DNA from: Haliotis cracherodii
Lineage: Eukaryota
DNA: 64,000 nt
Direction: 5' to 3'
Assembly (NCBI RefSeq): GCF_022045235.1
Contig: NW_027266273.1
Span: forward strand, 17,608,001 to 17,672,000
Shown here: piece by piece, positions 14,336 through 60,449 of the stretch
Numbering within the stretch: position 1 is the stretch's first letter
Layout: each line of letters opens with the position of its first letter
Notes under the pieces: model-generated
Told to the model about the DNA's origin: nothing
Databases searched by the model: none
What the model saw: only the letters and a program-made list of their open reading frames with translations
Program-made: the position numbers and the translations under genes

Positions 14336-14623
14336 ACGGAGACGATCTCAGGTTCTGCTCCATATCAAATTCCAAATTCTTTTGATGTAATGAACCTTGA
14401 AAAACTTATATGCGTAAGTATTTCCAAAACGTCTGTTGTCATGTGACATATCGGGCACGAGTGGCCAACTGGTCAGCGCCGTCATGCCAAGACACGATGA
14501 TCTTGGGTTCGAATCCCACTTTGGCCCGATTATAATAATGATGTGAAACACCCTAATTTCATAATTTAATGGTTGACCATGATAAAAACTACAAACTCCT
14601 TTTCTTTCAGATAAAACGTTTCC

Positions 14624-32006: not shown

Positions 32007-32280
32007 CTGGGAGGCAAACAAAACGTGATATGAATGTTAATCGATACGACAGGGGATAGGAGTAGGGTAAATGTTTTATTACATATATGTGGTCTGTAAG
32101 AGGAACGAGTATTGTCGCTGACATGTATTACACATTTACTGAAACTCCTAAAATTATCGATCTCGAAATTCAGGGCAAATTCCAACAATTATTTAAATTT
32201 GAGTGCTAATGTAATTCAAAATATCCAAAATAGCCCACACGCTCAGCAGTACTTAAATATATATAGTGAGTGCATTAGAC

Positions 32281-36342: not shown

Positions 36343-37694
36343 CCCCCCTCCCCCGGCCGTGTCTGCCCCTTTCACATAGATACAAGTGTACAGTTTTATA
36401 TGACAGTGAATGCATTTCCAGAAGTACGTACTACATTCTAATTGGACAATATAAGCAACAAATATGATCTCGTTTGACTGGACATGAATAAATTGACTTT
36501 ACCCGATTGACCGGTTGACCTTTATCTTATCTATGTATAATGAAGCTGATACTTAATATGGACAGATATCATGTCGCTTGGAGCGTCAATCAGCAATCCT
36601 TAATTACAAATGATGGACAACGTCACAAAGGACGGACAGGTCAAGCTGGACACTGAATTATCTAATATTACATTTATTGCGTGACGTCAGTGCGCCAACT
36701 GTGCTTCACGATCAGGTTTCAACGATTTAACTTCTAACTTTATATTTCTTAATGCTTATTAAGTATTATTCCGTGTGTATATTTTGTAAACGTCTACATG
36801 TAAAAGTAGTTTATGACAGTAGTTTTATATGATCTGATAGTTCATTCGTGACCAACTTGTGTTATTCCCGGACAAGTCTTCTTGCAGGTTACGGATGGGG
36901 CGAGCGGTGACGAATGCTGATAGATCGATCTGTGGAAGTGTACAGCTAATAAAAGATTGACCCTTGCTGTCTGTTATTGTTTTCTAATCGCCACTCATTA
37001 CTGCTTTACCTTTTCTAAACAATAGATGGTGGCAAACTGACGAGACCCGGATCACGTTTCATAAATGACGATACAGTTTCACAAGATGTCCATTTTCAAT
37101 AATAGACGTCGATAGAACATCAACAACATTGCCGATAGGACATACGTACATACGTGGAATCACAGGTGCGGAAACGTCCCGTCAACATTATTATCTCAAG
37201 GAAACAATTGTCCATAATGGTGCCTATGTGACGACATTATTGAAACACTGTCTGGAACTAACCTTCCAACGCCGCTAGTCTTTTTGTCCCTCGTCTTGAG
37301 GTAGCCATGATGTATCCACTGATAGTATGGACGACAAGCGATTGGTTCTGGGGAATATTTCGATTATAAAAAGGGAAGCCCTATTCACACGAGGTGACTT
37401 TTCCCCGGGGGGAGGGAGTCAGGTACAAAGGACATATTCATAAGGGTCGCGGGACAACTGGTTTCACCTGTTTTTTATCTCGAGGGGGCGCATAAGGACA
37501 CGTGGGTCATATATCATATGATTCTGGACGTCGACTTTGTCAAGTGATAAATTATTGCTGTGCTTGAAGAAATAACTGTATTTACACTGTTAATAACAGG
37601 GCAAGGCTTTATCGTGTTAATGTCTCTGAACATGGTGTATGAAGTTAGCATTTGTTACACAGGGATTAGTACTGCCAATTATACTGGTTTTCAA

Positions 37695-40488: not shown

Positions 40489-40540
40489 TCACACAACTAA
40501 GGCATCTTACGTGTTTAATTTTGAAGGCATTTTATTTAAG

Positions 40541-40900
40541 ACATTGAACATGATACCTTGTACATTGTTCATTTTACACGGTACGTTTGACATGGTACAT
40601 GATTCCTTACACATGGTATATTTGACATTGTACATGATACATTGTACATGATTTATTTTACATGGTACATTTGACATGGTACATGATTCATTTTACATGG
40701 TACATTTGACATGGTACATGATTCATTTTACGTATACATGGTGCATTTTACATGGGAGATGATACATTGTACATGGTCCATTTTACATGGTACATTTGAC
40801 ATGGTACATGGTTCATTTTACATGGTACATTTGACATTGTACATGATTCATTTTACATGGTACATTTGACATGGTACATATGACATGGTTCATGATGCAT
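40541..40900. repeat. Degenerate tandem repeat built on acatggtacatttg / acatgattcatttt
   Basis: Directly visible. Confidence 0.85.
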
Positions 40901-41019
40901 TTTCGTGGCACATTATATAGTTTACATGAAAATGGGATATTATATATAGTGACATCGAATTGCCGTAGCGCATAAATCATACCACGTGGTACAGGAAATG
41001 TCATTCTGCATTAAAGGTC

Positions 41020-44000
41020 TCATTCATAGCTGATCTGATCTAGACGGTCCATCTCATTGCAAATTTCCGACAGTGATTTCGGGTTGTTTCTCCCAATTGT
41101 TAAAATATAGTTTGCTACATTCGTTGCGGTTTTCTGAGATAGATCACACTCTATATCTGTCAGTTCCTTTGTGAACAACCTGACACATGAATCTTCCACC
41201 ACCTGGTTATGACGGATGGGGACTCCAGGTGCTATCTCACGTGACATGCTCCGAAGCATCGGTAGCAGTTTCCGCAGTGCCTCTGACTGATGCTTTCCAT
41301 GATGTATGACGCTATTCAAAAGTTCCTGAACAATGGGCCGGTCGCGCTCATCTACCTGCTTCAATTGCTCCAGCAGGTGCTTCAGCATCATCTCCCTACC
41401 CTCTGTCTCTCGGTTGACGTGTCTAGATGGAACCATTCCTGGAGTCCAGCATCCGTCAGCGGCGTCCCGTGTTGGTGTGCCATCTCCACCTGTCTTGAAG
41501 TCCATATTCTCATGTGCAGTCGTGCATTCCTTGACCTGATTCCCGAGTCGGATGTCCTTTGTATCCGGATGCTTGCTGCTCGCGTATTGTGCAGATGCGC
41601 AACCTCCGGTGCCACCATTCAGATGGCTTCCACCTGTGTCAAATGGGATTTGAACAGGCATTCCTGCATGGTCAGTATTGTCAACATCGACGCGAATTGT
41701 AGCAAGCTCATTGACACGGACTTGGTAAGGAATACTGCAAGCATCTGAAGATTTATCGGGACTTTCCCCGTGAAGAACAGGCTTGGAACATGATGCATTC
41801 TCTCCTTCTGGTGACACAATTACCCAGTCACCTTCCACCAGGTCGTCTGTATTCCCACATTCGGTTTCTACATCACACCTGTCTACTGAAAGACGTTTGG
41901 ACTGAAGATTCAAACCAGGCCTGCGAAGCTCTACACAAGGCATACATTCTTCAAGCTGAAATGAAATAATATGCTAAAAAGTATATGGGAACAATCATCA
42001 TTAAGTGTTAAACACTGAGTAGTGTATTGCAAGGATAGCTTAGAAAAGTATTATACTATTCAACTATATAATAAATATTTTATTTAGTTTCTGTTTCTTT
42101 CCCACTAAATTGCAAACGTCGAGATTTGACGACTCGTGTTCAGGTTCAGGAGGATGTCCCACTTAATCATCCTCAATGCCTCGATGTGTACATGTATTGT
42201 CATTCAGGATTAGTAGCTGCAGAATTTACTGTTTGTTTGTTTGTTTGTTGTTTACGCCACACTCAGCAATATTCCAGCGAAATGACGACGGTCTGTAAAT
42301 AATCGATGTAGGGTGTGGATTTGGCGGATTTGTAATATGCATTATATGTAAGCATATTATTACATTATCATTATACTTAGCTTGACAACGTATCGAAATC
42401 ACAGGTAACTGATTATGTATATCATGAGGCTGAGACACTGATTCACTCGTTGCTCGTTTTTGTGTGAATAGTCTGTACGTACTTACCTGAGTTTCGTCAC
42501 TTGTTCGAAACAATATTCCCATAGTATTGTACAGGACGGATAAGAAGGATGCTGAAACAAGCACCACATGCCTATGGTGATGTAGCAAAGTTGGAAGAAC
42601 TTGCATGACATAAACACATACAAGGCGTATGTACATGAAGAACGAGTGTTTACAGGATGAATAAAAAAACCAGAATAAAACTGCCCATCACATAATCTAT
42701 TACAAATTCAATGCGTTAATTTTATCGATTGGCATAAAATTGCCAATCACATTCATTTAACATTTGATCCCAATATTATCCGGTTTGAAATGATATAAAA
42801 AATGTTCTTATCATTACATCCTGAAATTAGAACTATCAACAGAACACCCAATGTCGTGCCACAAGGTACCTAGATCAATCTACTGAACAGACATCTTGCC
42901 GAGGCAAGAGCGTTAACTAACTGTAAAAGGCCAGTTTCCACCCTTGCCGAACTAGGCTGGAATTCCTGGGCTCGATTGTAGCGCCACCATCGACTATTAC
43001 AAGTTATGTCCCTTCTATATCCCTCCTATGGACCAATAAGATTCCTACTCTCACATACGATCTGATCGATAATCAAGATCAATATTGTTATAAAACGTGT
43101 CTTACTTCGCGAAATGCATCAAATCACGTGAGCACCTTGATCAAAAACTTGAAGAGATTTGGAAAATATCTGTTGACGCCGAGTTGACATGCTTTGCAAA
43201 TTCTGCAATCGTCCGAAATCGGCCTCTGGAAGATGTTGAACAGACAACTGGGATTCACTTACGTTTGCTGTTGTCGAGATGATGGTCGTCATTGCCAGAC
43301 TCTGCAGCAGCGTCTCGTGTGTGTTGTTGGTCCTGATGTTCGACCATCACGTGTTTTTCACTTGCGCTGTCAAGTCGGACTCGTGATTTCCTTTCTGTCA
43401 GTGATGTGTCTTTAATACAATCATCACGGGTTCCTGGACAATAAGACAGCAGTGATAATAGCAAAGGATGCGTTTGAGAACACACTGCACACGTACTTCA
43501 CAGGGAACATCCATATATACGATAGGGGGCGATGGGTTAGCCTAGCGATTAAAGCGTTTGCTAGTCACGCCGAAGACCCGGGTTCGATTCCCCACATGGG
43601 CACAATGTGTGAAGCCCATTTCTGGTGTCCCCCGCCGGGATATTGCTGGAATATTGCTAAATGCGGCGTAAAACCATACTCACTCACTCACTCATATATA
43701 CGATAGGGAAATGACACTGTGCACTTATCTATCACTTACCCAGCCTTGACTTGAGGGCAATGTTGTCTTCCTGTGACCCAATTCCATTAAAGTGAAAGTA
43801 GACGTGATTATCTGAAATTAAGAATGTCAGTGTTACACATCGGGATTGATACATAGTCATGGCATGGCCTAACGGGAGTACAGCTGTGTGGCGTTAGGCA
43901 ACAAACGCACACTTACTTTTATACGCAAATGGTGTAAATAGCGGGTGCTACTAATGGAGCAGGACATGCTTACCCTTTTCGCAAGCATCTGATTTGCGGT

Positions 44001-44562
44001 GATGCATTCATATAATATTCACTGCCATTTGCCTTTTACGCCTAATGGAATCTGTTTCGATGGATAACAGAGACAGGTTGATCTCTGGCATTGACGTTAA
44101 TTATATATTTAAGTATTACAATGTCTCAAGTACCAGTACTTACACGTGTTGCCCATCCCACCATGGATTACTCCACCCGTGTTGGCAGTTTCGACTGAGC
44201 CTCCTTGGACACCATGGATGGAGGTTTCTGGGACCCCCGATTTCCGACCTGATTCTACAACATCATATATTGAATCCATGATTAGAACTTATAGCTTGTC
44301 TCTGTTTCTACTTTCACTTCGAAAACATTGTAATATCTCCACGATCAATTCAAATGTACATGTAAATATGCACAAAATTAGAGGATGTATGCCATCTATT
44401 AAAGTAAAAACATAATCTGCTGTCGTAACTTTAGGTACATAATGTGTTTAAGTACTAACCATCTGGTAAGCCTCTTGAAGACACAGACCTCTCCACATCT
44501 TCGGACCTTGGGTGCAGCTCTACAACCTTATTGTATTCCATGTTTGTGCCCGTCTTCTCCAT
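41020..44562 (-). CDS. Orphan protein A (~440 aa); exons 44460-44562, 43740-43811, 43263-43409, 42487-42551, 41020-41955; disordered N-terminus plus helical C-terminal module
   Basis: Five exons with canonical splice sites and matching phases (1,1,1,0) give an open frame MEKTGTNMEY..GLPD|DNHVYFHF..|DTSLTERK..|PSFLSVLY..ETQ|LEECMPCV..QISYE*. Confidence 0.75.
42893..43230. mobile_element. MITE family E, truncated
   Basis: catcttgccgaggcaagagcgttaact TIR and internal homology. Confidence 0.75.
43525..43694 (+). mobile_element. SINE family B
   Basis: TSD atatacgataggg. Confidence 0.88.
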
Positions 44563-44870
44563 CCTTGCCTCGGGTACACTCCTGTAAAGTCTCCTTTTTC
44601 TGGTTTCTGAGGCCCTGTGTCCTCAGAGTCCTCAGAGCATGTATGGAAGCCAGTGTGCAGACAACAGATTAATAAACAAACAAACACTGTCCTTATTTAT
44701 TAATGATCAATTTCTAACTACCCTTTGTTGGCATTGAAAATAGATACTCTGTATATGCAGATGCAGTGCTGATATCACTGCATACACTCGTGATCCACCT
44801 GTAACCTTTATGTAGTCTAAACACAGTACGTTATTTTGAAACGCATAAGCGATATGCACATGTCATTTGT

Positions 44871-47266
44871 CAGTGATATACAGATATATAGAGGTGTGAG
44901 CAGGGTATTATTTCACTTGATATTGATATTGTTGCTTATTAAGTATTTTGACAAACAACTAATAAAACGAAGTCGGCTTCCTTGTTGGAACGTTTTGTAT
45001 AGTCTATTGATAAAGGTGTACGGGAAATCCCGAGTGAAATCAGCAAAGTAGGTTTAAAGATAGATCCTCTGCCGTGTACATAACCACGAACTGTCACCTG
45101 GATCAATCAATTGAGAGTCTTTTTTGGAGCATGATTCATTTGAATCTCGGACCCCGTTACCTTTTTTTTAATCTAAATTCCAAAAAAGAGCCGAGGCCCA
45201 TTTAGCATACAAGCCGTGGGCTCGCGCTCAGAATATGCTGATGTTCTCACAGTCCCCTTTCAGCTGCTTTTCATCATCCGGAATAATATTAAAAATTATA
45301 ACAGTTATCGAAACAATTAAAATAGGGATTCAGCCTCTTCTTTTGAATAACATGAATATGCTGTATCACCAATATTAATGGTAAGATTTGTTTGTTTGTT
45401 GTTTAACGTTTAATTCAGCCATATTCAAACTACATGACGGCGGTCTGTAAATAATCGAGTCTGGACCAGACAATCCAGTGATTGACATGAGCATCGATCC
45501 CTGCAATTGGGATACGATGACATGCATCAACCAAGTCAGCGAGCCTTACCACCCGATCCCGTTAGTCGCTTCTTACAAGCATAGTCGCCTTTTATGGCAA
45601 GCATGGGTTGCTAAAAACCTTTTCTACCCCGGATCGTCAAGGGTAGTTAATGATACGAACAACAAATAATGATACAATTAGTATTTAAATTATAATGAAT
45701 ACCATGCCACGTAGCTTCTGTGCTTCATGAAAACATTATATTACGGAAAGTAATGCTTGCGATATTGAACTACATGTGTTTAACGAATACGCAACACGCA
45801 CAGAGGGAAATTTTATACTTTACTTCATTTCTTTATTTCATTTTTAACATTGACCTATGTTTACAGACAGGGTAACATCAAGTACCATCTTTTAACGTCT
45901 TTTGGTATGACGCGGCTGGGGTACGAACCCCGGACCTTCCGCTCTCCGGGCGGACGCTCTACCATTAGACCACGGAGGCGGTCTCAGTGATATTCAGATA
46001 TATTAGAGGCGTGAAAAGGGTAATATTTCACTTGACACTGATATTGTTGCTTATTAAGTAGTTTGACAAACGACTAACAAAACGAAGTCGACTTCCTTGT
46101 TGGAACTTTTTGTATAGTCTATTGATAAAGGTGTACGGGAAATCCTGAGTGAAAACAGCAAAGCAGGTATAAAGATAGATCCGTCTGCCGTGTACATAAC
46201 CACGAACTGTCACCTGGATGAGCAATCAATTGAGGGTCATTTGGGAGCATGACTCATTTGAGTCTCAGACCCCATTACCTTTTTTATCCAAACTCCAAAA
46301 AAGGACCGAGGCCCGTTCAGCATACAAGCAGTGGGCTCGCGCTCAGAATATGTTCATGTTCTTATAGTCCAATACAGGACTGTTAATAGCCCGAGGCGCT
46401 ACGTCTTTTCAGCTGCTTTTCATCGTCCGGAATAACATTTAACACTATAACAGTTATCGGAACAATTAAAATAGGGATTTAGCCTCTTCTTGTGTAAAAC
46501 ATAAAGAGGCTGTATTACGAATAGTAATGGTAGAATTGTTTGTTTGTTGTTTAACGCCATATTCAAGCTTTATGACGGCGGTCTGTAAATAATCGAGTCT
46601 GGACCAGACAATCACGTGATTGATGTCATGAGCATCGATCCATGCAATTGGGACACGATGACAAGCTTAAGCATCAATCAAATCAGCGAACCTGGCCACC
46701 TGATCCCATTAATCGCTTCTTACAATCAAAGTTGTTTTTTATGGCAAGCATGGATTGCTGAAGACCTTTTCTATCCCGGATCTTTACGGGTAAATAATGA
46801 TAAGAACAACATATAATAATACAATTATTATTTAAAGTAGCTCCGACGTTCATACAGTTCGGCCCTCACTCTACGAAGGTTCATACTCCAATGAACTCAC
46901 ACAAAGTGAATGTCAATTCTTAAATGTGAGTGAGTGAGTAGGGTTTTACGCGGCTTTTAGCAATATTCCAGCAATATCACGGCGGGGGGACACCAGAAAA
47001 GGGCTTCACATATTGTACCCATGTCGGGAATCGAACCCCGGTCTTTGGCGTGACGAGCGAACGCTTTAACCACAAGGCTACCCGACCGCCCTAATTCTTA
47101 AATGAATACCATGTCACGGAGCTCAATTCGATACATTACATTATCGAAAGGAATGCTTGCCTGTCCGATGCTATAATGAACTACATGTGATTAACACGCA
47201 CACGCACAGCAGGAAATGTTATACTTTACTTCGTTTCTTTATAACATTTTTAACATTGACCTATGT
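44871..47266. repeat. Direct tandem duplication of ~1 kb (44871-45860 and 45985-47266); each unit contains a SINE D
   Basis: Both units start cagtgatat.cagatata and end ttgacctatgt. A SINE A 5' fragment (45866-45984) is at the junction; SINE B (46927-47092) is only in unit 2. Confidence 0.88.
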
Positions 47267-47339
47267 GTATATGGTGTTTTACTTTATCGTAAAGATATCA
47301 CAACAGTCATTGAATAACGCTTGAGATGTGTTGATAAAA

Positions 47340-47900
47340 GTGAGTGAGTATGGTTTTACGCCGCTTTTAACAATATTCCAGCAACATCACGGCGGGGGAC
47401 ACCAGACATGGGCTTCACACTTTGTACCCATGTTGGGCATCGAACCCGGGTCTTCGGCGTGACGAGCGAACGCTTGAACCACTAGGCTACCCGACCGCCC
47501 CTTCTCTTTAGAAGAAACGGTATGCAGTAGTATCACGTGTACTTTGTCGTTGCGGATAACAATGGCCTTGGAAGTTAGCTATATCACTGACTACTTCAAT
47601 CATAGATAATTAAATAAAAGCATAGCGAAAGAGTGATCAAACAAGTATCTCATATGTGCAGATATGATGATGAAAACATCGAATACGTTTTCACGTCCAA
47701 GCATTTGCGGCAGTGTTTGGCTCCGTTCTTCCCTCATTTGTGACTGATGGTGCAGCGGCAACCTTCGTTTCTGTTTGTTTCTTATGTACTGCTTGTTTTT
47801 TCAATGTCGCCTGTATATCGGCGATTCTTGTCAATGCATTCTCAACGCTCTCAGCAAGATCCGAAAACCTTTGATTCAAATTTTGAACATCATCCACATC
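47340..47900 (-). pseudogene. 3' fragment copy of TRP paralog 2 (last ~69 codons, 3' UTR and SINE B)
   Basis: DDVQNLNQRFSDLAESVENAL...AANAWT* is nearly identical to the paralog 2 C-terminus; nucleotide similarity extends over 16540-17098. Confidence 0.92.
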
Positions 47901-47902
47901 CC

Positions 47903-48262
47903 GAGGTGAGGTGAGGTGAAATGGGGTTTAACGTCTCGTCCAAGATTATTGCACTTATACAGCGACGTGCATGTACGTGTTTGTGTTTGTGTGGCTGCTT
48001 GTACTAGTCCGGACTGATGCCGAGTTATAGTGCTAGCTCACTGAGATACCATGTCGCAGTTTAATATGAATACCCCACTCAGACACAGTATACTGACTCC
48101 GAGCCGACCAGTCCTTGTTTTAGCCCCTTAATGTCGAGCGCCAGACAGGGTAACAACAAGTACCATCTTTTAACGTCTTTTGGTATGACGCGGCTGGGGA
48201 TCGAACCCCGGACCTGCCGCTCTCCGGGCGGACGCTCTACCACTAGACCACAGAGGCGGTCT
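47903..48262 (-). mobile_element. SINE family A
   Basis: Complete copy, imperfect TSD gg(t/a)tgtgga. Confidence 0.88.
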
Positions 48263-49055
48263 CCACAACCTGATGACAATTGAGAATGATTTTATAGGTC
48301 TACCCCGTACTGTAAACTACTTGTGACGCTCGTTTATCTCATGGGTGCAACATGTGGGTGCATTCTACAAATATCACCTGGGGAAAACCCTTCCTCGCGG
48401 TTAACCTATATTACGCTGGGCATGCCCATTCTTTTATTTTCATGAGTCATGGTTAATAATACACATAAGCTGATATAACGTTACTTGATAAATATATACT
48501 TTGATCGGTAAATAGTAGAAATATGCATGAATAAAATAAATAAATAATATCTGACATACCTGACAAATATGAATATTAAAGAAGAACATAAAGATTAACT
48601 TTCGATTCCTGAAAATGAAATCACCGAACCCGGTGGGCTCAAAGGTTATCTAATTACTTTGTCATGACAATATCTATACCTAACACAATGCTCCACAACA
48701 TCATACATATTAATGTCTAAGCTTTTAATGATCATACTAATATTTAAAAGTACTGAATAGTTAGTTTCACACCGTTGTGATACGCCCCAGACGTCGAGCC
48801 CCGACACAAACTTTAAAATATTCCATTGAGCGTCCATATGAAAGAAAATTCCTTTAAGTGTACATTAATTTAAATGTCATTTCAATATTATCTAGGCGTA
48901 GATAATTGACATGCAAGTCCAGCAGTGAAACAAATAGATAGTTTAAACAAGAGAGTGACGTAACAGATATGTATTAATTAGCTTTGATGCACAGAGCGTC
49001 TTTCTTCAGTGAATGCTATTCCATTCCAAACGAGTCGATATTTCTAAAATCACAA

Positions 49056-49495
49056 GTGGATCAGTCGTCTAAGGCGCAGCAATTCGCTGTGCACAGTTGC
49101 GTCCCTTAGACGTGCCAGGGATCGTGGGTTCAAAATCCAGAACCGCCTCCGTGGTCTAGTGGTAGAGCGTCCGCCCGGACTAGTACATATTAAACTGCGG
49201 CATGGTATCTCAGTGAGCTAGCACTATTAATCGGCATCAGTCCGGACTAGTACAAGCAGCCACACAAACACACACACGAACATGCACGTCGCTATATAAG
49301 TGCAATAATCTTGGACGAGACGTTAAACCCCATTTCACCTCACCACCTCAAAATCCAGATTCACCCTGATCATGTATCTAGGTTTGTCAGCACCATATCG
49401 CAGCTCTTACCTGTAATATTTCGAATTCTGGATTTCCTCCCACATGAAGCTGATATGGCGTGATATAACTGAAATACTGCGTTAAACCAAACACA
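49056..49495 (+). mobile_element. Old SINE C interrupted by an internally deleted SINE A (49142-49349)
   Basis: TSD aaaatccaga flanks the A copy. Confidence 0.78.
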
Positions 49496-49780
49496 AACAC
49501 AAACATTTGCGTAAATATATGCACAATGAACAGGATACGATTGTGAAGGTAGTTTTACAGATAAGGCCTTGATGTCATATGCCGTACATAGAGCTTCGAC
49601 TCTCTCCCGGGGAACGTACTCATTTGGGAAAAGCCAGGGCATGTGTCTCTGTATTTAAACACGTGGGTCAGGATAACCGTATCGCTGGGGTCGGGTTGTT
49701 AAGTAGGACCCTCAGCCTTTTATCGCAACATATGACAGCCCTAACAGTGATAACAAAGTGCCTGTGATAACAAAATTCGC

Positions 49781-50140
49781 CGACCGCCTTGGTCTAGTGG
49801 TAGAGCGTCCGCCAGGAGAGCGGAAGGTCCGGGGTTCGATCCCCGGCCGCGTCATACCATAAGACATTAAAAGATGGTACTTGTTGTTACCCTCTGGCTC
49901 TCGGCAATAAGGGGCTAAAACAAGGACTGGTCCGCTCGGAGTCAGTATACTGTGTCTGACTAGCGTATTCATGTTAACCTGTGGCATGGTATCTCAGTGA
50001 GCTAGCACTATAAATCGGCATCAGTCCGGACTAATACACGCAGCCCCCCCCCCCCCCCCACACACACACACGTACATGCACGTTGCAATATCAGTACAAT
50101 AATCTTGGACGCGACGTTAAACCCCATTTCACCTCACCTC
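49781..50140 (+). mobile_element. SINE family A
   Basis: Complete copy. Confidence 0.88.
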
Positions 50141-51024
50141 AAAATTTGTCTGTCAGAATAATACTTGAACCTGTCGAAGGTATGTACGTATAATAAATGT
50201 AGCAATCTAATACGTACAAATTCGATGTGAAATATTAAATATAAGTATATGCGTCATGGCAGAAATATATCATAGATGTGTACCGATGTATATTACTCAA
50301 TATTTGATAAGGATCACCACTTTAAAAGGTGATGTGTCAATTGTAGCCAAAGTAGCCAAAGACATGTTTATTGAACAACAAGTTCGTTGTCATGTGCAAC
50401 ACAATACCCACAAATAACATGTGGCCAGAAAATCAGTCACATCACCCAACAAAATGAGGGTACCTGACCAAAACTGATCCATTACGAAAACGAAAACATA
50501 TCAAAACGTGATCCTCAGTTACTGGCTTTGATTGTTATAGAACATGGCGGACTAGTTCCATTGTCGGAATCGGAATTTCGACATGGTATCTATGCAGATA
50601 AACAAACTAACACAAGATGCGTGCCCACAAACAAATATGCCTTCTATTGTTTATTTTGTTATAACTAGCTGAAGTTCAGAAACTAACTGGCAATGATGCC
50701 ACCTTTGCAGTGGATACTGGCATAATTAAGGGTCTTTAAGCATATTATTACAGAGACCAAGTATACCGATTGACCACCAGAGATTTGACAACAGTGCACA
50801 AAGTAGAAGAAGAAGAAGTTTATTTCTGTATAAAGGCCACAGGCCCAGGTACAATATAGATACATGTGTTATATACTGGTGCTGGTACAATAACAAGAGG
50901 CACAGAGTGCAAATAAAGTGCAATTAGAATTATAATAATGAAGAAGAACGTAAAGATAGGGCATCTTTCATGTATTTAGCACATAATGACCAGGTTTCAA
51001 TGGTAGACGTTTGTATTAAAGTTC

Positions 51025-51306
51025 TGAGTGAGTGAGTGCGTTTGGTTTAACGCCGTTTTTAATAGTATTCCAGTTATATCACGGCGTGTCAGCTTAATGT
51101 GGGAGGAAAGCCCGAAGTGATGCAGGTCACAGACGTTTACCACTTCGGTGAAACCCACGAGCACGGGTATGGTGCTGACAAACCTAGAAACATAATCGGG
51201 GCGAACCGGGATTCGAACCCACAATCATAGGTTTCTGGCGTGCCTAAAGGACGCAACTCTGCACAGCGAATGGCGGCGCCTTAGACGACTGGGCCACCCG
51301 TGCCCC
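51025..51306 (-). mobile_element. SINE family C, left arm only
   Basis: TSD aaagttctgag; empty site at ~61962-61972. Confidence 0.88.
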
Positions 51307-51983
51307 AAAGTTCTGAGGGAGTACTCATTTTTTAAGTTACTGTTGGGAAAATATGTGTCTTAAAATATCATAGGTTGGGCATACTTACCCTAGATACACC
51401 CTCCCGCCTACCTATATTTTTCATAATTTGTAATTCTCCAATTCTTTATAATGTTAAACAGCTCCTTTGGTCTCTTTGGTGTATATGAGTTGCGAAAGTT
51501 GACTTTATAGTGGAGTAAAAATCTAATTTTGAATGTTCATTTAACTTATATATACAATATAATAATATGTAATATATATAATATATATAATAATAATATA
51601 TAATAACACATATCTATACAACTGAAAACTCTACTTGGAAGGCCCATAACAAAGGGAATATATATTCCAGCATTTCAAAAGACGATAAACGAATCTTTGC
51701 TTGCTGTGATCTGTGTATGACTAAAATATGTGATTATTTACAACATTAAAACGTCCTATTATGAATGCAAAATACATGTATTTGTTAAAAGAATGAATTC
51801 TATAAAATAATTTAAATCTAAAGCGTACAATGATTCATTATAGTACCTCAAAGATTGATTTTAGTTCACCCTTTGTCTTACAAATAGAACCATACTTATG
51901 CTATCTATGACAGAAGTTAAGGTGATAAATAGGGCTGACACATTTTGATATCAATAAGCAATTTCGGCGTTTCAGTGTTCAAA

Positions 51984-52132
51984 GTGAGTGAGTGCATGTA
52001 GCAATATTCCAGCAATATCACGGCGGGGGACACAAGAAATGGGTTTCACACATTGTACCCATGTGGGGAATCGAACCCGGGCCTTCAGCGACGAGCGAAC
52101 ACTTTAACCACCACACTCCACCCACCGCCCCA
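51984..52132 (-). mobile_element. SINE family B shared by both arms (partner 61110-61265)
   Basis: Same position in both arms. Confidence 0.8.
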
Positions 52133-52719
52133 CGTGATCAAAGTTCTTAGAGGGAAAAAGGAACACCAACTCAGTACTTTGGGGTATATACACGTTTTAT
52201 TAATACAAGTAGCTATGTACAAGAAGGCATATATGTGCTGGCTGGGCTAAGAGCAATTCCAATCCTAGAATATTCATCCATTGTACTTTTCTCCATTCCA
52301 TTATGATAAATATGCTTGACCAAATTTGTCACCAATCAAGTAAAGTTGAAGTTACTATCACATAGATTGCGATTGGCGTCTTCTCCAGCGGTTGGATTCA
52401 GTGTGCTCATCATAATAGAATAACGTAGAACACAGGATTGGGGGAGGCCATATGGTTTCAATAACATCAAATTGCTAATAACATCAAAGGCATATGACAA
52501 AGAAGATGTAATAAATATAAAAATAAACTAACAAATGAAAAAAGAATGTATACACAGTTTAGGTTGTCTGACAATAGGGGTAAAATGCATTAGAAAATGT
52601 AAGGATTAAGATATCACGTTTTATATCACTTTTCATGTGTCTGTACAAGATCACATAAAACAAAGGTGTTATTGCTAATATTTGACATAGCACGTGCAAA
52701 TACATGACACCCATAAGAG

Positions 52720-53950
52720 GTGGCGCTCGTTTTAATTTGAGCAAAAAGATCCTTTATCTGCTTCATGGGCATGTCTGCATCTTGCAATGTATTACAACCT
52801 GGAAACATAATGCATTACTGTTAGTCCATCTATCTCAATAACATCAGTAATATTACCATATCACATGTATCAACACCAAGTTACAACACCATTTTCATAA
52901 TCATAAAAAAATGCTAAACGAATAGTCCATTGTACGATTCCGACAATGACTTAAATATGTGTTAGCCAATCTCTAACAAAACGTTCCTGCAAGCCGTAAA
53001 CATGTTTTGAAATGTTATCCATATTGCAGTTGTTTTCCATTTAAAACAATTCCTGTAACAATTCACTTTTGATTTAGTACTGTAATAGAAGTTTATCATG
53101 TGTAATACTATTGTGGTCATGGAAAGATAGTCTGTGCACTTTAAATACATATTTCACTATTCTGCAAAAGGTACAGTAATAGTAATAGCCCATCAATAGT
53201 TGAATAACGGAATACATTTAACTAAACTAAACTTGTTTATGGTTAGAAAACGTTGTTGATGAATAGCAAATCCCCCAAACATTGATGTTAAAAATATATC
53301 ACATGATCTGATTTGATAAAAGTGTTCACGTCCATCAAAGCTATGCGATATTATTTGACAAATATTAATCCGGATGCTGAAAACCACAAAATGATTTGTT
53401 GTTTAGTTATAACCTGGGGACTCGTGCATATTCCATGCAGAACTTACTAGGAAAGACCCTGCCAGTTTGGATCCATCCATATACCCTCCTGACGCCCCTG
53501 TCGTCATTGTTGTGCACAGCTGTTCATCCTGAACTGATGAAGCCACATTGTGTACATTTTCTAAAACTAATCAAATCTTGAATAATGATATCTTACAAGC
53601 GCATTACAACAACTCCATACGATAACGTCCAAGACATCAAAAACTCAAGCTAGGTAACTTTATAACTGTTTGTCTTCACACCCCTCTTGAGGCGTCAATC
53701 ACTAAAAGTAATCATTATATTGATCCATTCTCGATTAATTAAGCAAGCACAATCACAAAGGAATCTTAGACATCCATAGCATTAATGCATCTTTGTCTAT
53801 GCCTATATACAGTGAAACACCGAAAGCCTATCTACCTGTGGGATGGGGCGTCTCCTGTGTGTGTCTCTGTGCCTCTTCTAAGGCCGGTGCCACTTCATCC
53901 TTACCCGCCAAGACATCAGGTAAATTGCGTTCTTCTCCTGTGTGAACCAT
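52720..53950 (-). pseudogene. Deleted copy of orphan protein B
   Basis: Exon 1 is intact (MVHTGEERNLPDV..). Exon 2 lacks ~28 nt. Exon 3 jumps from KQIKDLFAQIKTS directly to sequence matching 60515 onward (~970 bp deletion). Confidence 0.88.
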
Positions 53951-55399
53951 TCTGAAACACCGAACACATGTGATAAGCATATTGAATGGCGTTGAGTTGA
54001 AAATCGACCCACGCAATTGCACGAGGACATGCAATCAACCAAGTCAGCGAGCTTGACCACCCGATCCCGTTAGTCGCCTCTTACGACAAGCATGGGTTGC
54101 TGTAGACCTTTTCTAGCCCGGATATACAGGGGTGGGGCATGTGAGTACTTTAGACAACAACATACGGCTTGATTGATAATAAATAGGAGCTAACGACCCA
54201 CAAAGTGATGTTTTAGGAGACTTGAGGTCCACTTTTAACCATGCTTTACATCGATCCTATTAATGAGAGAGCGTGAGTGACGAGAGTTTTTTTACTTGCC
54301 AGACCTTAAAATGAAATTAATACCTTGACCTATGTTGAGACTTATCTGGTAAGTGATGCAGCTGTAGTTGTTACAGGTAGATGTGTCATCAAGCGTATTC
54401 CTGACAGGAGCAACACCAAGACAACACAGCTCCTCTACCTCAGACTGAATGTCAACACAGCAACCACAATTACACCTGTAACATTATTGCATCAGGAATA
54501 TTTATTTTCATGATTTACACTTTGTTTAAGTATACAGTTCATTACCAGGCCAAGGCATATAAATTAATATCAAGTGAAAACAATTTTACATTTTTACTAA
54601 GGGATATGCAATTAATAATTACAACACAGGGTATCTGACTTGAAGTATCCATGATGTCCGAATGATAAAACATATTTTAAAATGCCAAGTAAATTTTAAT
54701 AGTGGCACAAACTTATGGTTACTGTTAGGTCTATTTAAGAGGTATCAAATATCTGCCTGAAGAAATTTTCCAGTGACCAGTTATGCTGGGGTATGTAACA
54801 GTTCCCCAGCAATGTTGCAATAGCTTTGTTGTTATTCCGTGGTGAGAACAAGCCAATAGTATAAACAATGATCTATTAAACTGATGTCAAACAAAACACA
54901 AAATATTGGGACTCATCTGGACCGTCTTTTCAAAAGGTGCTAGTCGCGTACAACGGGTGGCAGATCGGACAGCCGATTGAACACGACATTGAACAATATG
55001 ACAGTCGTTTTGAATATGAATTTGGATCTTAAATATTATTTCATAGATCTGGAGAGGTGAACATGTGGCTCTTGTCAGTATGTTTACAATCGGAAACAAC
55101 GTGTTGACTCAGCAGCCTGCGGGACGAACACCTAAATCGTGTTACGCAAAGAGTAGCAACGGTTAGCGACATATCTATTTGTTTATTAAAATTGCCATGT
55201 AGCCTTCGAAGAAGCCCATCGTGTGGTGAGGATAGTGAAACATTTTTTATAAGCTTGGATTGGACGATATTGGCATGGAATCGTGACAGGGTGGCACGTG
55301 ATAAAAGGTTAAAGAAGAGTATGGGTTAAGCTACCAGGCATGGCAAATATCTCTAAGAATACGTTTCGCTTCTGGGGGTGTACATTAACAGGACCGCGC

Positions 55400-56360
55400 G
55401 TCTGTCTGGGCAACGTGAGAGTTATGTACTGGAGCATTGTCTTGCAGGAGACGGACACTTTTGGTCAGGATGCCATGCCCTTAAGCTTGATAGCGTCCTG
55501 CAATTTCCGCAGCAGTGAAGCATAATAAGCTCCTGTAATTGTGGTACCCTTTGCCAAGAAATCCATCATCACTACTCCGTGCTGGTCCCAAAACACCGTG
55601 AGCATGGCCTTGCCTGCAGAGGGTTGGACACGTGCCTTCTTTGGGGATGGTGACCCCACATGCTTCCATTGCATCGACTGAACTTTACCCTCAGGATCAT
55701 AGTGATGGACCCATCCTGTGTGATAAGTCTGTCACAAACGTTTGCCTGTTGTTGTTTTTTGGCACATATCCAAAAGATCCTTTGAGCAATTGACTCGTTC
55801 CTGCTTTTGGAAAGGTGTGAGCAACCTGGGAGTCCATCGTGCAGACACCTTATGCATGTTGAAATTGTCATGGATGATTTTTTCCACAGACCCTATACTG
55901 GTCTTGACATCTTATGCTAACTGGCGAACAGTTATACGTCGGTCTGCCAAAATGGCGGTCTCCACTTGATGGATAGTGTCCTCATCAATGGCTGAATTGG
56001 GGCGACCCGGAATGGCAGCTGTTTCCACAGATGTCCGACCACACTTGAACTGGCGATGCCAGTGTTTAACAACGTCATATATTAGGGCATCTTCCCCATA
56101 AGTTGCTTTCATTTCATCGAAAGTTTATTTTGGTGTGCGACCTTTCAAATATAAAAACCTAATCACTGCTCGGTATTCTACTGGCTCTATTGTCACACCC
56201 TACTCGATCATAACACCTGTATAAGTGGTAAGATTAATAGTTCGGTGCTGCAAATTCAGACATAACCCATAGCTACATGTATCATTACACATGTGAAATT
56301 TCAAGCAAATATGATAACCCTAAGTGGTTGAGGGGAAATCTTTAATGAACACCCCTCGTA
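55400..56360 (-). mobile_element. Decayed mariner (DD34D-type) transposon, 3' truncated
   Basis: Terminus TA-cgaggggtgttcattaa. Translations include YRAVIRFL, GRTSVET..GRP, DRRITVRQLA, KVSARWTPRLLT, VHHYDPEGK.QSMQWK, SAGKAMLTVFWD, LLQDNAPVH, with stops and frameshifts. Confidence 0.92.
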
Positions 56361-57847
56361 CACTGAGCTGTAATGAAATATTTAGGCCAAGTTTATTCTT
56401 ACCACAGTGGCCTCGTCGGTTGTTCAGTAGATGGGTCGGAGGCCGATGACACGAATAAAAGGTCTTCGCTTGATTCCTCTTCGTCACCATACCTTGACTT
56501 TATCTGGCAGTTCTGGAAATTTTCTGGTGAAGGTACTTGATATCTTTTGCGTTGAGAATAGACAGGAACCCAGTTGAATTGTCACCAATTACGTCATAAT
56601 CTAAGGGGGATAACTCAGGTCTGTTTAGCTCGGAAAACGAAGGCCTCATAACGGCATATCATTTTCACACTGTTGTGAGCTTCCTACGTTCACTGTGAAA
56701 AAAATGAGTGTATATTTTCAAACACTGATACAAACTAATTCTAAAATTGCGTTTTGTTTACAAAAAGAAAGAAAGTGATTTTTGCGTGTACACTTTGAGA
56801 CCATATTGTTTTAAAAGGTTGTTGTGTAGGTTATCTTTTGAATATATTTAGTACAAAAACATCTAAATAATTAACTAGGTGTATATAAGACTAAAGAAAA
56901 TTAGACACAGTTGAACGATTAACGCGCAAAAATATGCATCCGCGAGTTTGTGCTGTACACTGTATGGCCCATTTCCTACTTTCACGGCCGAGTCCTCTTT
57001 GCGGTTACGGGAATGGGCGTGAATTGCCGATTGCAATTGCACGTGGCGAGATGACGTCACGGATACGGTATGTCCTTCCGGTATTGATGATAACCTATTT
57101 TTAGATCGTGGGCCTTCCCACATTTTACACAAGGCGTTGGGACATCGAGGCAACAACGTTAACACGTCTACATATTGTCTCACCGTTTGACCGCTGAAGA
57201 CAGCAATCGAATAAGATTTACCTCTAATTTCCCATGGAATTCAAGTTTATACCGGTACAACTAAATCTCTCTGGATGTGTTCACGAGAGAGGTAAGCACA
57301 ACCTTTACTGAGTGTAACCCACATGACATGAATTCATACCTCCATGTCATGTTCACACAATTCATTTTCTGTTCACAATAGTAGTATCCACCATTAATGT
57401 CCCAGATTGCCTTGTATATCGTCTTTCTAAACGACAATCTCTTTATTAACATTCCTTGCTTTAATTGGCTTCTTCCCCTCGGAATATCTCAAGTCTCAAC
57501 ATAGGTCAAGATGTTAATTTCATTTTAAGGTCTGGCAAACTACTGTTTACTTCGCAAATCGTTACTTTAACCATTACCTACTAATTCTGTAGCATTCTGA
57601 ACGTATAACATTATAAAGAAATTTAGCATGCATACATTAACCTTGATGAGAAAAATGACACATATCTAAATATAAATATGCAAATGTAAAAAAACTCTCG
57701 TCACTCACGCTCTCTCATTGATAGGATCGATGTATAGCATGGTTAAAAGTGGACCTCAAGTCTCCTAAAACATCACTTTGTGGGTCGTTAGTTCTCATTT
57801 ATTATCAATCAAGCCGTATGTTGTTGTCTAAAGTACTCACATGCCCC

Positions 57848-58062
57848 ACCCGTGTATATCCGGGTTAGAATAGGTCTTCAGCAACCCATGCTTGTCGTAA
57901 GAGGCGACTAACGGGATCGGGTTGTCAGGCTCGCTGACTTGGTTGATTGCATGTCCTCGTAAACCAATTGCGTGGGTCGATGTTCTTGATATCAATCACT
58001 AGATCGTCTGGACCAGATTCGATTAATTACAGACCGCCGTCATATAGGTTGAATATTGCTCA
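57848..58062 (+). mobile_element. SINE family D (truncated partner at ~54000-54125)
   Basis: Matches consensus. Confidence 0.82.
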
Positions 58063-58291
58063 ATATCTGCTATATCCATCTAGGACAAACTGAAATTCAA
58101 ATGTTTTGTGTTGGAATTGTCCTGGATGGATATAGCATGTATATAGCATGTATATATAGTTTAATTGTTCAAAGTAGATATTGTGCAGTCTGCTTACAAT
58201 TTGATGAACCCCTTAACATTCCTGGCACACAACATCGTATTCCAACTCAACGCCATTCAATATGCTTATCACATGTGTTCGGTGTTTCAGA

Positions 58292-60449
58292 ATGGTTCAC
58301 ACAGGAGAAGAACGCATTTTACCTGATGTCCCGGCGGGTAAGGATGAAGTGGCACTGGCCTTAGAAGAGGCACAGAGACACACACAGGAGACGCCCCACC
58401 CCACAGGTAGATAGGCTTTCGGTGTTTCACTGTATATAGGCATAGACAAAGATGCATTAATGCAATGAATGTCTAAGATTCCTTTGTGTTTGTGCTTGTT
58501 TAATTAACCGAGTATGGATCAATATAATGATTACTTTTAGTGATTGACGCCTCGAGAGGGGTGTGAAGACAAACAGTTATAAAGTTACCTAGCTTGAATA
58601 TTTGATGAATGTCTTGGACGTTATCGTATGGAGTTGTTCGCCTATCTGCTTGTAAGGTATCATTATTCAAGCTTTGATTTGTTTCAGAAAATGTACGCAA
58701 TGTGGCTTCATCAGTTCAGGATGAACAGCTGTGCACATCAATGACGAAGGGGGCGTCGGGAGGGTATATGCTTGGATCCAACGTGGCAGGGGCGCACCAT
58801 GGAGATAATTACATTCTGTACTTTCCAAGTAAGTGTTGCATGGAATATGCACGAGTCCCCTTGTGTTGACCAGGATGAATTTATAACTAAACAACAAATC
58901 ATTTTGTGGTTTTCAGCATCCGGATTAATATTTGTCAAATAATATCGCATAGCTAGGGGATGTGAACACTTTTATCAAATCAGATCATGTGATATATTTT
59001 TCACATCAATGTTTGGGGGATTTGTTATTCTTCAACCGACAACGTTTTCTAACCATAAACAAGTTTAGTTTAGTTACATGTATTCCGTTATTCTTCTATT
59101 GATGGACGTATTACCTTTTGCAGAATAGTGAAATATGTATATAAAGTGCACCGACTATATTTCTATGACCATAATAGTATCACACATGATATAATTCTAT
59201 TGCAGTTGTACACAAATCAAAAGTGAATTGTTACAGGAATTTTTTAAATGGAAAAAAACTCTGCAATATCGATAACAGTTCAAAACATGATTACAACTTG
59301 CTGAAACTAGAGATTGGCTAACGCATATTTAAGATATTGTCGGAATCGTACAATGGACTATTCTTTTAGCATTTTTTTATGATCATGAAAATGGTGTTGT
59401 AACTTGGTGTTAATACATGTAATATGTTAATATTACTGATGTTATTGAGATAGATGGACTAACAGTAATGTATTATGTTTCCAGATGCAGACGTACCCTT
59501 TAAGCAGATAAAGGACCTTATTGATCAAATGAAAACGAGCGTTTCTTCCACCAGGACTGCACAGAATCAACCGTGCCAAACTCCTATGACTGACAAGGGA
59601 AACGACAATGCTGATGAACACATCACGAGTGGGGTCTCATATGCGGAACATGAAGAGGAACACCTGATGACAGATGAGGAACTCTACTTTCACCTTCATC
59701 AGTGTCACATCGATGTAAGTGATGAGGACATTAATGCCTTAAAGGATGATGAGGTGTATTGTTATATTGTGGATTTCCTTGCGTGCTACAATATCAGGAG
59801 GTCAGGACCAAGATGTGATTCCACCGCATTGGGAGTTAAGATGAGAAATACAGTGATTCACCATACACGTAACAAGATAGACCCGCCCAATGCTGCAACA
59901 GAAGAAACTACTTCAGATGTCAAACTTAAGTTTAATGTCAAAGGTGGGAAAGATTCCGGGAAGCAGGGAAAGGACCTTCTTGATGATGTCGACTCAGAGC
60001 ATCTGATGGAAGATTGTACAATTGCACCAACACAACTACATGGACTTAATGACATCCCTGGAAGATGTGTGGAGTTTACATATGATTTGAGATGGATCCA
60101 GTCTCGCGCAGTGAGAGTCATTACCAGGCACAATGTGGAAAAAACTGTTGAGATAGGAAAATTACTTTCTTTAGAAAAAGTGCGCAATGTTTTCTCATTT
60201 TTGGACGCTATTCTGACTGAATTTGATCAACATTGGACTACGCGCGGTTCAGGGTTTTATCCACTTCATCCTGAATCTATTTCAGAAATTATCAGAATTG
60301 ATTTGAGAGACATTCAGAACATATTAGTAAGAGTGAAAACTAAACAAAATGTCGAATTGATTTTGCAGATTAGTGCCATGAAACCATCAAAGATCAAGAT
60401 TCAAAAGATCGAACATTTTCTGTCTGGCATGCTTTTAGAAGAATATTGA
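58292..60449 (+). CDS. Orphan protein B (~406 aa); exons 58292-58406, 58688-58828, 59485-60449; C-terminal duplicated helical module
   Basis: Canonical acceptors (gtttcag, gtttcag, tttccag) and donors (gtagat, gtaagt), both introns phase 1, open frame MVHTGEERILPD..PHPT|ENVRNV..GAHHGDNYILYFP|NADVPFKQIK..MLLEEY*. Confidence 0.8.

What the first reader, a model, noticed from the sequence alone, without database searches (positions are those of the whole stretch)
41020..60449. Two orphan genes share an apparently undescribed, tandemly duplicated helical module
Protein B has an internal repeat: RCVEFTYDLRWIQSRAVRVITRHNVEKTVEIG..KVRNVFSFLDAIL vs SISEIIRIDLRDIQNILVRVKTKQNVELILQIS..KIQKIEHFLSGML. 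The C-terminus of protein A aligns ungapped to the second copy: DSCVRLFTKELTDIECDLSQKTATNVANYILTIGRNNPKSL vs ESISEIIRIDLRDIQNILVRVKTKQNVELILQISAMKPSKI (9/41 identical, same hydrophobic register). A also has a weaker upstream copy (ELLNSVIHHGKHQSEALRKL vs NVANYILTIGRNNPKSLSEI). Both genes have small phase-1 5' exons, long disordered N-termini and one large last exon. This suggests a fast-evolving local gene family with a new small helical interaction domain.
Basis: partly seen in the sequence, partly recalled or inferred. Interest (0 to 1): 0.75.

Follow-up and report, generated by a model that had tools for sequence, protein, structure and literature searches.

The report
Abalone-only proteins with tandem terminal module
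Two neighbouring abalone genes encode mostly unstructured proteins that end in a conserved two-unit module with no match in the domain and structure libraries searched; they are likely distant relatives and likely act as signalling scaffolds, possibly through a short self-assembling (RHIM-like) motif near their start.

Summary
The window is Haliotis cracherodii DNA. A (485 aa, minus strand) and B (412 aa, plus strand) equal database proteins. Their relatives were found only in Haliotis, or on one unnamed contig. B's internal repeat is real (z 9.35, 0 of 1000 shuffles). A's C-terminus models as 3+3 helices (pLDDT 69). The claimed A-B match is weak. The 9/41 identity is chance-level (97 of 150 shuffles) and the shared hydrophobic register is not above chance. 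A profile of A's second unit against both B units is borderline (E 0.007, 3 of 600). B shows beta-type periodicity that A lacks, and B's model is unusable. No family cut-off or significant fold match was found: the NURR lead failed, and the BTB-hairpin and histone-fold leads stay weak. New here: both proteins carry a colinear N-terminal Gly-rich motif resembling a degenerate RHIM (strict core not met). All 7 A-family proteins keep a W-type LIR motif. An inverted, broken copy of B lies between the two genes. Best reading: a young birth-and-death family of cytoplasmic adaptors. Shared ancestry about 0.55-0.6; amyloid signalling about 0.2.

The parts
44460..44562 (-). Gene A coding exon 1 (aa 1-34, phase 1)
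44144..44254 (-). Gene A exon 2 (aa 35-71, phase 1-1); holds the Gly-rich motif
44160..44213 (-). A N-terminal motif, aa 49-66: two G-[VAI]-x-x-G units 13 residues apart (RHIM-like, degenerate); continues into exon 3
43740..43811 (-). Gene A exon 3 (aa 72-95, phase 1-1)
43263..43433 (-). Gene A exon 4 (aa 96-152, phase 1-1)
42487..42551 (-). Gene A exon 5 (aa 153-174, phase 1-0)
41020..41955 (-). Gene A last exon (aa 175-485 + stop)
41815..41832 (-). W-type xLIR motif in A (aa 216-221), kept in 7 of 7 A-family proteins
41230..41394 (-). A unit 1 (about aa 362-416), predicted three helices
41023..41199 (-). A unit 2 (aa 427-485), predicted three helices; borderline similarity to the B units
50097..54343 (-). 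B': inverted copy of gene B, about 84-96% identical. It has a 28-nt frameshifting deletion in exon 3 that removes the motif core, has lost about 970 bp of the last exon including both module units, and no copy of exon 1 was found
57275..57291 (+). Gene B coding exon 1 (aa 1-5, phase 2)
58291..58406 (+). Gene B exon 2 (aa 6-44, phase 2-1)
58688..58828 (+). Gene B exon 3 (aa 45-91, phase 1-1)
58750..58824 (+). B N-terminal Gly-rich motif, aa 66-90; aa 66-83 are colinear with A aa 49-66; 17 of 25 identical to H. asinina vs 24 of 56 and 14 of 53 in the flanks
59485..60449 (+). Gene B last exon (aa 92-412 + stop)
59649..59804 (+). Conserved acidic island in B (aa 147-198; 29-30 of 52 identical to H. 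asinina and H. rubra), no family match
60066..60230 (+). B repeat unit 1 (aa 286-340)
60273..60446 (+). B repeat unit 2 (aa 355-412)

Best explanation
A and B are Haliotis proteins with a conserved two-unit C-terminal module on a long, poorly conserved chain, and they are likely old paralogues that likely work as cytoplasmic signalling adaptors. SHOWN: gene structures; B's tandem repeat; conservation of the module (64-74% identity to H. asinina or H. rubra) and of B's N-terminal motif above their flanks; a W-type LIR motif at the same place in all seven A-family proteins; local duplication and loss (B'). PREDICTED: A's two units fold into one six-helix, 3+3 domain. INFERRED: (1) the module arose by internal duplication before A and B split, and B's units diverged towards a mixed alpha/beta pattern; (2) the packed two-unit domain is the partner-binding end; (3) the N-terminal N-x-x-G-phi-x-x-G motif would let the proteins co-assemble through short beta-strands, as RHIM adaptors do, clustering the C-terminal domains on flexible tethers; (4) A's LIR would tie such assemblies to ATG8 for turnover. 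Steps 3 and 4 are the least certain (about 0.2 and 0.4).
For: B repeat. A model pLDDT 69, pTM 0.64, helices 2-15, 20-39, 41-57 | 73-84, 91-107, 110-127. A2 vs pooled B units: E 0.0068, 3 of 600 shuffles; HMM scores of the five A2 sequences were beaten by 6-23 of 638 decoy windows and 3-4 of 100 shuffles. Leave-one-out A2 vs A1+B: E 0.0034, 0 of 150. Unguided MAFFT puts all four units in one register. A second region, the N-terminal motifs, aligns ungapped, 7 of 18 identical, E 0.042, 15 of 200 shuffles. Same order of parts in both proteins; genes 13 kb apart here and on same-length contigs in three species. xLIR in 7 of 7 A-family proteins, with an acidic upstream context in 6 of 7 (pattern as in PMC5119064). 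No signal peptide or membrane stretch seen by eye.
Against: All direct A-B pair tests are non-significant. The borderline values come from regions chosen by eye, among many comparisons (8 alone). Leave-one-out fails for A1 (118 of 150) and for B (12 of 150, in another register). B segments have 170-degree moments of 0.35-0.58 (17-residue segments) and up to 0.83 (11-residue windows), with 35-47% V/I/T; the matching A helix has 0.02-0.11. The low-confidence B model puts strands in unit 2. Intron phases at the last exon differ. The strict RHIM core is absent; B of this species lacks even the loose core. The three H. asinina A models start downstream of the motif. A profile of the B motif found only 3 of 1189 candidates, all B family. 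Any xLIR arises by chance in 18-30% of shuffled A-family proteins, and the stricter test was defined after seeing the motif. B has no LIR at a conserved place.
Confidence: 0.4

Rival explanations
1. A and B are unrelated neighbours. A ends in an all-helical domain; B carries its own tandem alpha/beta repeat. The likeness is a chance amphipathic pattern, and the Gly-rich stretches are low-complexity linker.
For: Chance-level pair tests; beta periodicity in B only; strands in the weak B model; different exon numbers and last-intron phase; no cross-hits in searches.
Against: A2 vs B-unit profile, 3 of 600 and 0 of 150; colinear N-terminal motifs with the same 13-residue spacing; the B motif is conserved above its flanks; same layout and linkage.
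Confidence: 0.35
2. The unit is a decayed piece of the BTB C-terminal / 3-box helical hairpin, so the proteins would act as Cullin-3-type adaptors or decoys.
For: Pooled B unit vs fetched BTB-BACK sequences: E 0.021, 28 columns, 3 of 100 shuffles (10 sequences); E 0.055, 30 columns, 2 of 100 (24 sequences). A short strand before the hairpin would fit B's mixed periodicity (inference).
Against: The lead was recalled and tested after the fact; it weakened with more sequences; A2 does not match (91 of 100, 28 of 100); no BTB or BACK Pfam hit; the N-terminal two thirds of a BTB domain are absent.
Confidence: 0.1
3. The two units form a shortened, fused histone-fold-like handshake dimer that would bind chromatin factors or histone chaperones.
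For: In the second-look alignment the only rows with more than 100 aligned residues are fused H2A/H2B dimers and the SOS histone domain: 4m6b_D Z 4.3, 109 aligned, rmsd 4.5; 8zvy_A Z 3.9; 5chl_B Z 3.5; 1q9c_C Z 2.9. Foldseek TM(query) 0.42 for 5chl_B at E 6.5.
Against: Z is far below the tool's noise level for helical bundles. The central helices are 17-20 residues in the model against about 29 in histones (recalled). Only 1 of 20 profile comparisons with fetched histones reached E under 0.05 (A1 vs H4, E 0.038).
Confidence: 0.07
4. The unit is a diverged hnRNP Q/SYNCRIP acidic (NURR) domain and binds RNA.
For: A resemblance recalled from memory at the C-terminal helix of each B unit; hhalign pairs B1's last helix with the NURR one over 15 columns.
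Against: Against 51 fetched PF18360-type sequences (4 of them checked by Pfam): E 0.35, 33 of 60 shuffles for pooled B units; none of five unit profiles above chance; four-unit profile 63 of 100.
Confidence: 0.04

Closest known systems
RHIM / cRHIM adaptors (RIPK1, RIPK3, Drosophila Imd and PGRP-LC; fungal PP and bacterial BASS3 motifs)
   Same: Short Gly-anchored hydrophobic motif in a poorly conserved region, joined by a long linker to a small terminal domain. The loose [VI]-x-x-G core (PMC9387487) is met in A and in three of five B variants; the H. asinina B core reads G-I-H-F-G.
   Different: No central Gln: the G-(I,V)-Q-(I,V)-G core (PMC7885112; bioRxiv 2020.01.06.895854) is absent. No Pfam RHIM hit. 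No kinase, death, TIR or PGRP domain. Amyloid formation untested.
Death-fold adaptors (DD, DED, CARD, PYD)
   Same: A's module is predicted to have six helices and sits at a terminus.
   Different: Built as 3+3 long helices over about 125 residues; only a sub-cut-off Dark_CARD hit on B2 (14.1 bits vs cut-off 25).
BTB C-terminal / 3-box / BACK helical hairpin (PF00651, PF07707)
   Same: T-x-x-N-V helix start and a hairpin pattern in the B units.
   Different: No BTB core, no significant match, and A does not follow.
Selective autophagy receptors with LIR motifs
   Same: Conserved acidic W-x-x-V motif in a poorly conserved stretch of A.
   Different: No known cargo-binding or oligomerisation domain; B lacks the motif; binding untested.
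Tandem histone-fold domains (H2A/H2B fusions, SOS histone domain)
   Same: Two three-helix units packed as one pseudo-dimer; near-whole-length but weak structural alignment.
   Different: Shorter central helices, no sequence signal, Z at noise level.

Membership tests
RHIM / cRHIM motif | Central G-(I,V)-Q-(I,V)-G core (PMC7885112) | tested here: not met
   No Gln at the centre in any of 5 B variants or 4 A proteins that have the region; regex scan of the window's six frames found none
RHIM / cRHIM motif | Loose core VxxG or IxxG with invariant Gly (PMC9387487) | tested here: inconclusive
   Met in A (P0005, P0006, P0007) and in B of H. asinina and H. rubra; not met in B of H. cracherodii or H. 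rufescens, which have Ala. Chance of such cores is 0.02-0.22 per protein
RHIM / cRHIM motif | Match to the Pfam RHIM model | tested here: not met
   No RHIM hit for 9 full proteins or 4 motif fragments; HMMER filters drop weak matches
RHIM / cRHIM motif | Flanked by unstructured regions (PMC4262963) | not tested
   No disorder predictor was run; the flanks are polar and poorly conserved
RHIM / cRHIM motif | Forms cross-beta fibrils and seeds a partner | not testable with these tools
   Needs bench work
Death-fold superfamily | Six-helix Greek-key bundle superposable on DD/CARD/DED/PYD | tested here: inconclusive
   A model has six helices; best structural Z 5.2 to generic bundles; B model unusable
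Death-fold superfamily | Pfam score above a curated cut-off | tested here: not met
   Dark_CARD 14.1 bits vs 25 on B2 only; nothing on the full proteins
hnRNP_Q_AcD / NURR (PF18360) | Profile similarity over the domain | tested here: not met
   hhalign E 0.15-0.51 for five unit profiles, 10-51 of 60 shuffles as good
BTB-BACK proteins | Complete BTB domain | tested here: not met
   No Pfam BTB or BACK hit
BTB-BACK proteins | 3-box-type helical hairpin | tested here: inconclusive
   B pooled unit E 0.021 and 0.055; A2 no match
Histone fold | Handshake dimer of alpha1-L1-alpha2-L2-alpha3 units | tested here: inconclusive
   Z 4.3 or less, 103-109 residues aligned, rmsd 4.4-5.2
Histone fold | Sequence similarity to core histones | tested here: not met
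   1 of 20 comparisons at E under 0.05; the set held H3 (two), H4, H2B and a linker-histone-like protein, while H2A was not extracted
LIR-containing proteins | xLIR pattern (PMC5119064) | tested here: met
   7 of 7 A-family proteins at the homologous position; the pattern has low specificity
LIR-containing proteins | ATG8-family binding | not testable with these tools
   Needs a pull-down or peptide binding assay

The most novel reading that the evidence does not exclude
A and B are a molluscan pair of amyloid-signalling adaptors. They carry a Gln-less, two-unit RHIM-like motif that co-polymerises, a new two-unit terminal domain in place of a death domain or kinase, and, in A, a LIR that sends the fibril to autophagy. 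This would supply RHIM-type signalling in a phylum where RHIM-bearing PGRPs and Imd were reported not found (PMC9835746).
Probability: 0.18. Interest if true: 0.75.

Novelty: new variant of a known kind. Interest (0 to 1): 0.42.

Why it matters
At minimum this is an unannotated, genus-restricted small domain that arose by tandem duplication, in a gene cluster that is visibly gaining and losing copies: a tractable case of domain birth. If the N-terminal motif proves to be a functional RHIM-like amyloid, it would extend amyloid immune signalling to molluscs and give a testable candidate pathway in farmed abalone. If A and B are unrelated and the motif is linker, these are two ordinary orphan genes.

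Tried and rejected
Family and sequence searches. Pfam on last exons, 9 full proteins, units and islands gave no hit above a cut-off for A or B. PHROGs best E 0.013. PDB sequence searches gave only chance-level hits: Dps E 0.02, 'centriole protein' chains E 0.041, prion protein E 1.5. ESM Atlas gave no usable hit for either module. The HMM of four B units over 1.84 billion representatives gave 2 hits, both B family; no such search was left for A.

Folds. The B model (pLDDT 36.8) is too poor to use, so its fold searches were set aside. For the A model, Foldseek found nothing at E 0.001 or better in PDB or BFVD. No death-fold, NURR or BACK chain appears among the 50 VIA rows shown; this absence excludes nothing. 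Complex prediction of B unit 1 with B unit 2 gave no answer (score 0.02, alignment not used).

Leads. NURR was rejected by profile test. A DnaD-like resemblance (recalled) was not tested beyond Pfam and PHROGs. A short B-motif-like hit at 36870-36908 has no splice context by eye and is treated as chance.

Expression. 19 of 24 listed runs hold B's last exon, with no RNA holder listed. Read laying could not be done, so splicing rests on the database gene models. No whole genome was held, so paralogues outside the window could not be mapped. dN/dS was not computed because no orthologous DNA was available.

Literature and earlier findings. A search for six gene or protein identifiers found 0 papers; seven topic searches listed no paper on these genes. 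Four look-ups of earlier scan findings returned nothing.
Full report
IDENTITY AND GENE STRUCTURE. The two large ORFs (41023-41973 minus; 59469-60446 plus) match database proteins named as uncharacterized Haliotis cracherodii proteins at 100% over the searched regions. Splicing six exons for A and four for B at GT-AG sites reproduces P0005 (485 aa) and P0001 (412 aa) exactly. Intron phases are 1,1,1,1,0 for A and 2,1,1 for B, so 'phase-1 5' exons' is right for most but not all introns. Relatives: 4 of 73 candidates for B and 5 of 123 for A, all Haliotis (cracherodii, rufescens, rubra, asinina) except one unnamed Logan protein, P0002. An HMM of four B units read against 1.84 billion representatives returned only P0002 and P0003. 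In three species the A-type and B-type proteins lie on contigs of identical length, and the cracherodii accession numbers lie within five of each other.

THE REPEAT IN B IS REAL. Units aa 283-343 and 352-412 score z 9.35 (0 of 1000 shuffles), hhalign E 9.4e-7. Both units are conserved: 38 of 55 and 43 of 58 identical to H. asinina, against 14 of 53 and 31 of 77 in linker regions.

THE A-B LINK IS BORDERLINE. The quoted 9/41 is counted correctly but is what chance gives: 97 of 150 shuffles for identity, 10 of 150 for score. BLASTP, all unit pairs (z under 2.5) and full-length profiles (E 0.32) are non-significant. The hydrophobic register is not above permutation, though that ungapped test also misses B1-B2. 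Pooling both B units helps: A2 aligns over 31 columns at E 0.0068, 3 of 600 column shuffles, and A2 against A1+B gives 0 of 150. The reverse tests fail: A1 118 of 150; B 12 of 150 in another register. A second region gives a separate hint. The N-terminal motifs (A 49-66, B 66-83) align without gaps, 7 of 18 identical, each with two G-[VAI]-x-x-G units 13 residues apart; 15 of 200 shuffles did as well. Taken as independent, the two would combine to about p 0.003 (my arithmetic, Fisher's method), but both regions were picked by eye among many comparisons. I put shared ancestry at 0.55-0.6.

FOLD. A's module (5 sequences) models at pLDDT 69, pTM 0.64 as six helices in two groups of three. That supports an internal duplication in A that sequence alone does not prove. 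B's model (4 sequences) is unusable at pLDDT 36.8 and places strands in unit 2. Independently, B's most conserved segments show beta-type periodicity and 35-47% V/I/T, whereas A's matching helix is helical in periodicity. 'Helical module' is therefore supported for A and open for B. The A model has no significant structural match: best Z 5.2 among 48,161 chains. A second look showed weak near-whole-length alignments to fused histone H2A/H2B dimers (Z 4.3 or less), without sequence support.

KNOWN FAMILIES TESTED. I recalled a likeness to the SYNCRIP NURR domain and fetched sequences to test it: 117 loci, 53 with a long enough motif-bearing stretch, 51 distinct. Four were checked by Pfam; three pass the PF18360 cut-off and one matches below it. 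No signal above shuffles was found. A recalled likeness to the BTB C-terminal hairpin gave E 0.021 with 10 sequences and E 0.055 with 24 for B, and nothing for A2. It remains a weak, after-the-fact lead.

(1) The N-terminal Gly-rich motif. In B it is conserved like the folded module: 17 of 25 vs H. asinina, and 13 and 15 of 25 vs two H. rubra isoforms, against 27-48% in the flanks. It meets the loose RHIM core of PMC9387487 in A and in three of five B variants, but never the strict Gln-centred core of PMC7885112. Its profile finds only the B family, and the H. asinina A models lack the region. It is RHIM-like, not a RHIM. (2) A W-type xLIR in all 7 A-family proteins, with W218 and V221 invariant in the five aligned. 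Chance of any xLIR is 0.18-0.30 per protein; a stricter rule set afterwards gives 0.007 or less. (3) A conserved acidic island in B, aa 147-198, with no family match. (4) B', an inverted copy of B at about 50,100-54,340. It has a 28-nt deletion in exon 3 that removes the motif core and shifts the frame, has lost about 970 bp holding the whole module, and no copy of exon 1 was found. P0002 begins with sequence that matches B' (26 of 31) yet keeps an intact module 96% identical to B's, so an intact B'-type gene likely exists elsewhere. Together with two A-type proteins per species this indicates birth-and-death turnover.

MECHANISM. The layout is short motif, long variable linker with linear motifs, and conserved terminal domain, with no signal peptide or membrane segment seen by eye. 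That is the layout of a cytoplasmic adaptor. I commit to adaptor function with the two-unit domain as the binding end (inferred), possible co-assembly through the N-terminal motif (about 0.2), and ATG8 linkage for A (about 0.4). The neighbourhood adds little: a TIR-like ORF scores below Pfam's cut-off (E 0.0076) and two TRP-like channel ORFs lie 24-40 kb away.

PAPERS. PMC4262963: parts 1-2 of 4 of the text read. PMC9387487, bioRxiv 2020.01.06.895854, PMC7885112, PMC9835746 and PMC5119064: passages found by term. All others: search listings only. Figure alignments and supplements of the RHIM/BASS papers were not seen and may bear on the motif comparison. The histone helix length, the DNase I label and the propensity scales used in scripts are recalled.

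VERDICT. A real but modest finding: a genus-restricted tandem module without a known family, certain in B, predicted in A, and probably but not demonstrably shared. The more interesting possibility, RHIM-like amyloid adaptors in a mollusc, is not excluded but fails the strict motif test. Interest 0.42.

Noticed in passing
window 50097-54343 (-): Inverted broken copy of gene B; the large deletion lies between two short CTTCC words in B (seen by eye). P0002 looks like an intact gene of this type.
   Followed up: partly
window 1-1926 (-) and 14615-16747 (+): Two long uninterrupted ORFs (642 aa, open at the window edge, and 711 aa) of TRP/polycystin-type ion channels (Pfam Ion_trans, PKD_channel).
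   Followed up: no
window 5571-6194 (+): TIR-like ORF below the Pfam cut-off (TIR_2 E 0.0076).
   Followed up: partly
window 31810-32127 (-): Exon-sized stretch that looks like the start of a DNase I-type protein (recalled label; Pfam did not confirm it).
   Followed up: partly
window 22602-23054 (-): 151-codon open frame with protein-like composition and no Pfam match; it was the top decoy for the B-unit HMM at 4.5 bits.
   Followed up: no
window 58759-58779 (+), B aa 69-75: Seven residues of B's motif are identical to a stretch of mammalian prion protein, and the motif profile's only PDB hits were prion proteins, at E 1.5 or worse; probably chance.
   Followed up: no
P0004 vs P0012 (H. rubra LOC124253302): Isoforms with two diverged N-termini, each with its own version of the Gly-rich motif, spliced to one shared remainder: likely duplicated 5' exon sets.
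   Followed up: no
window 29161-29784, 29976-31465, 40540-40928: Tandem arrays of 53-bp, 37-bp and 7/14/21-bp-based units; the last sits just past A's stop codon.
   Followed up: no
G003 (L173-L186), G005 (L125-L164): Two genome bins held as prokaryotic contain a repeated eukaryote-type histone gene cluster (G003) and many BTB or BTB-BACK genes (G003, G005): likely host contamination.
   Followed up: no
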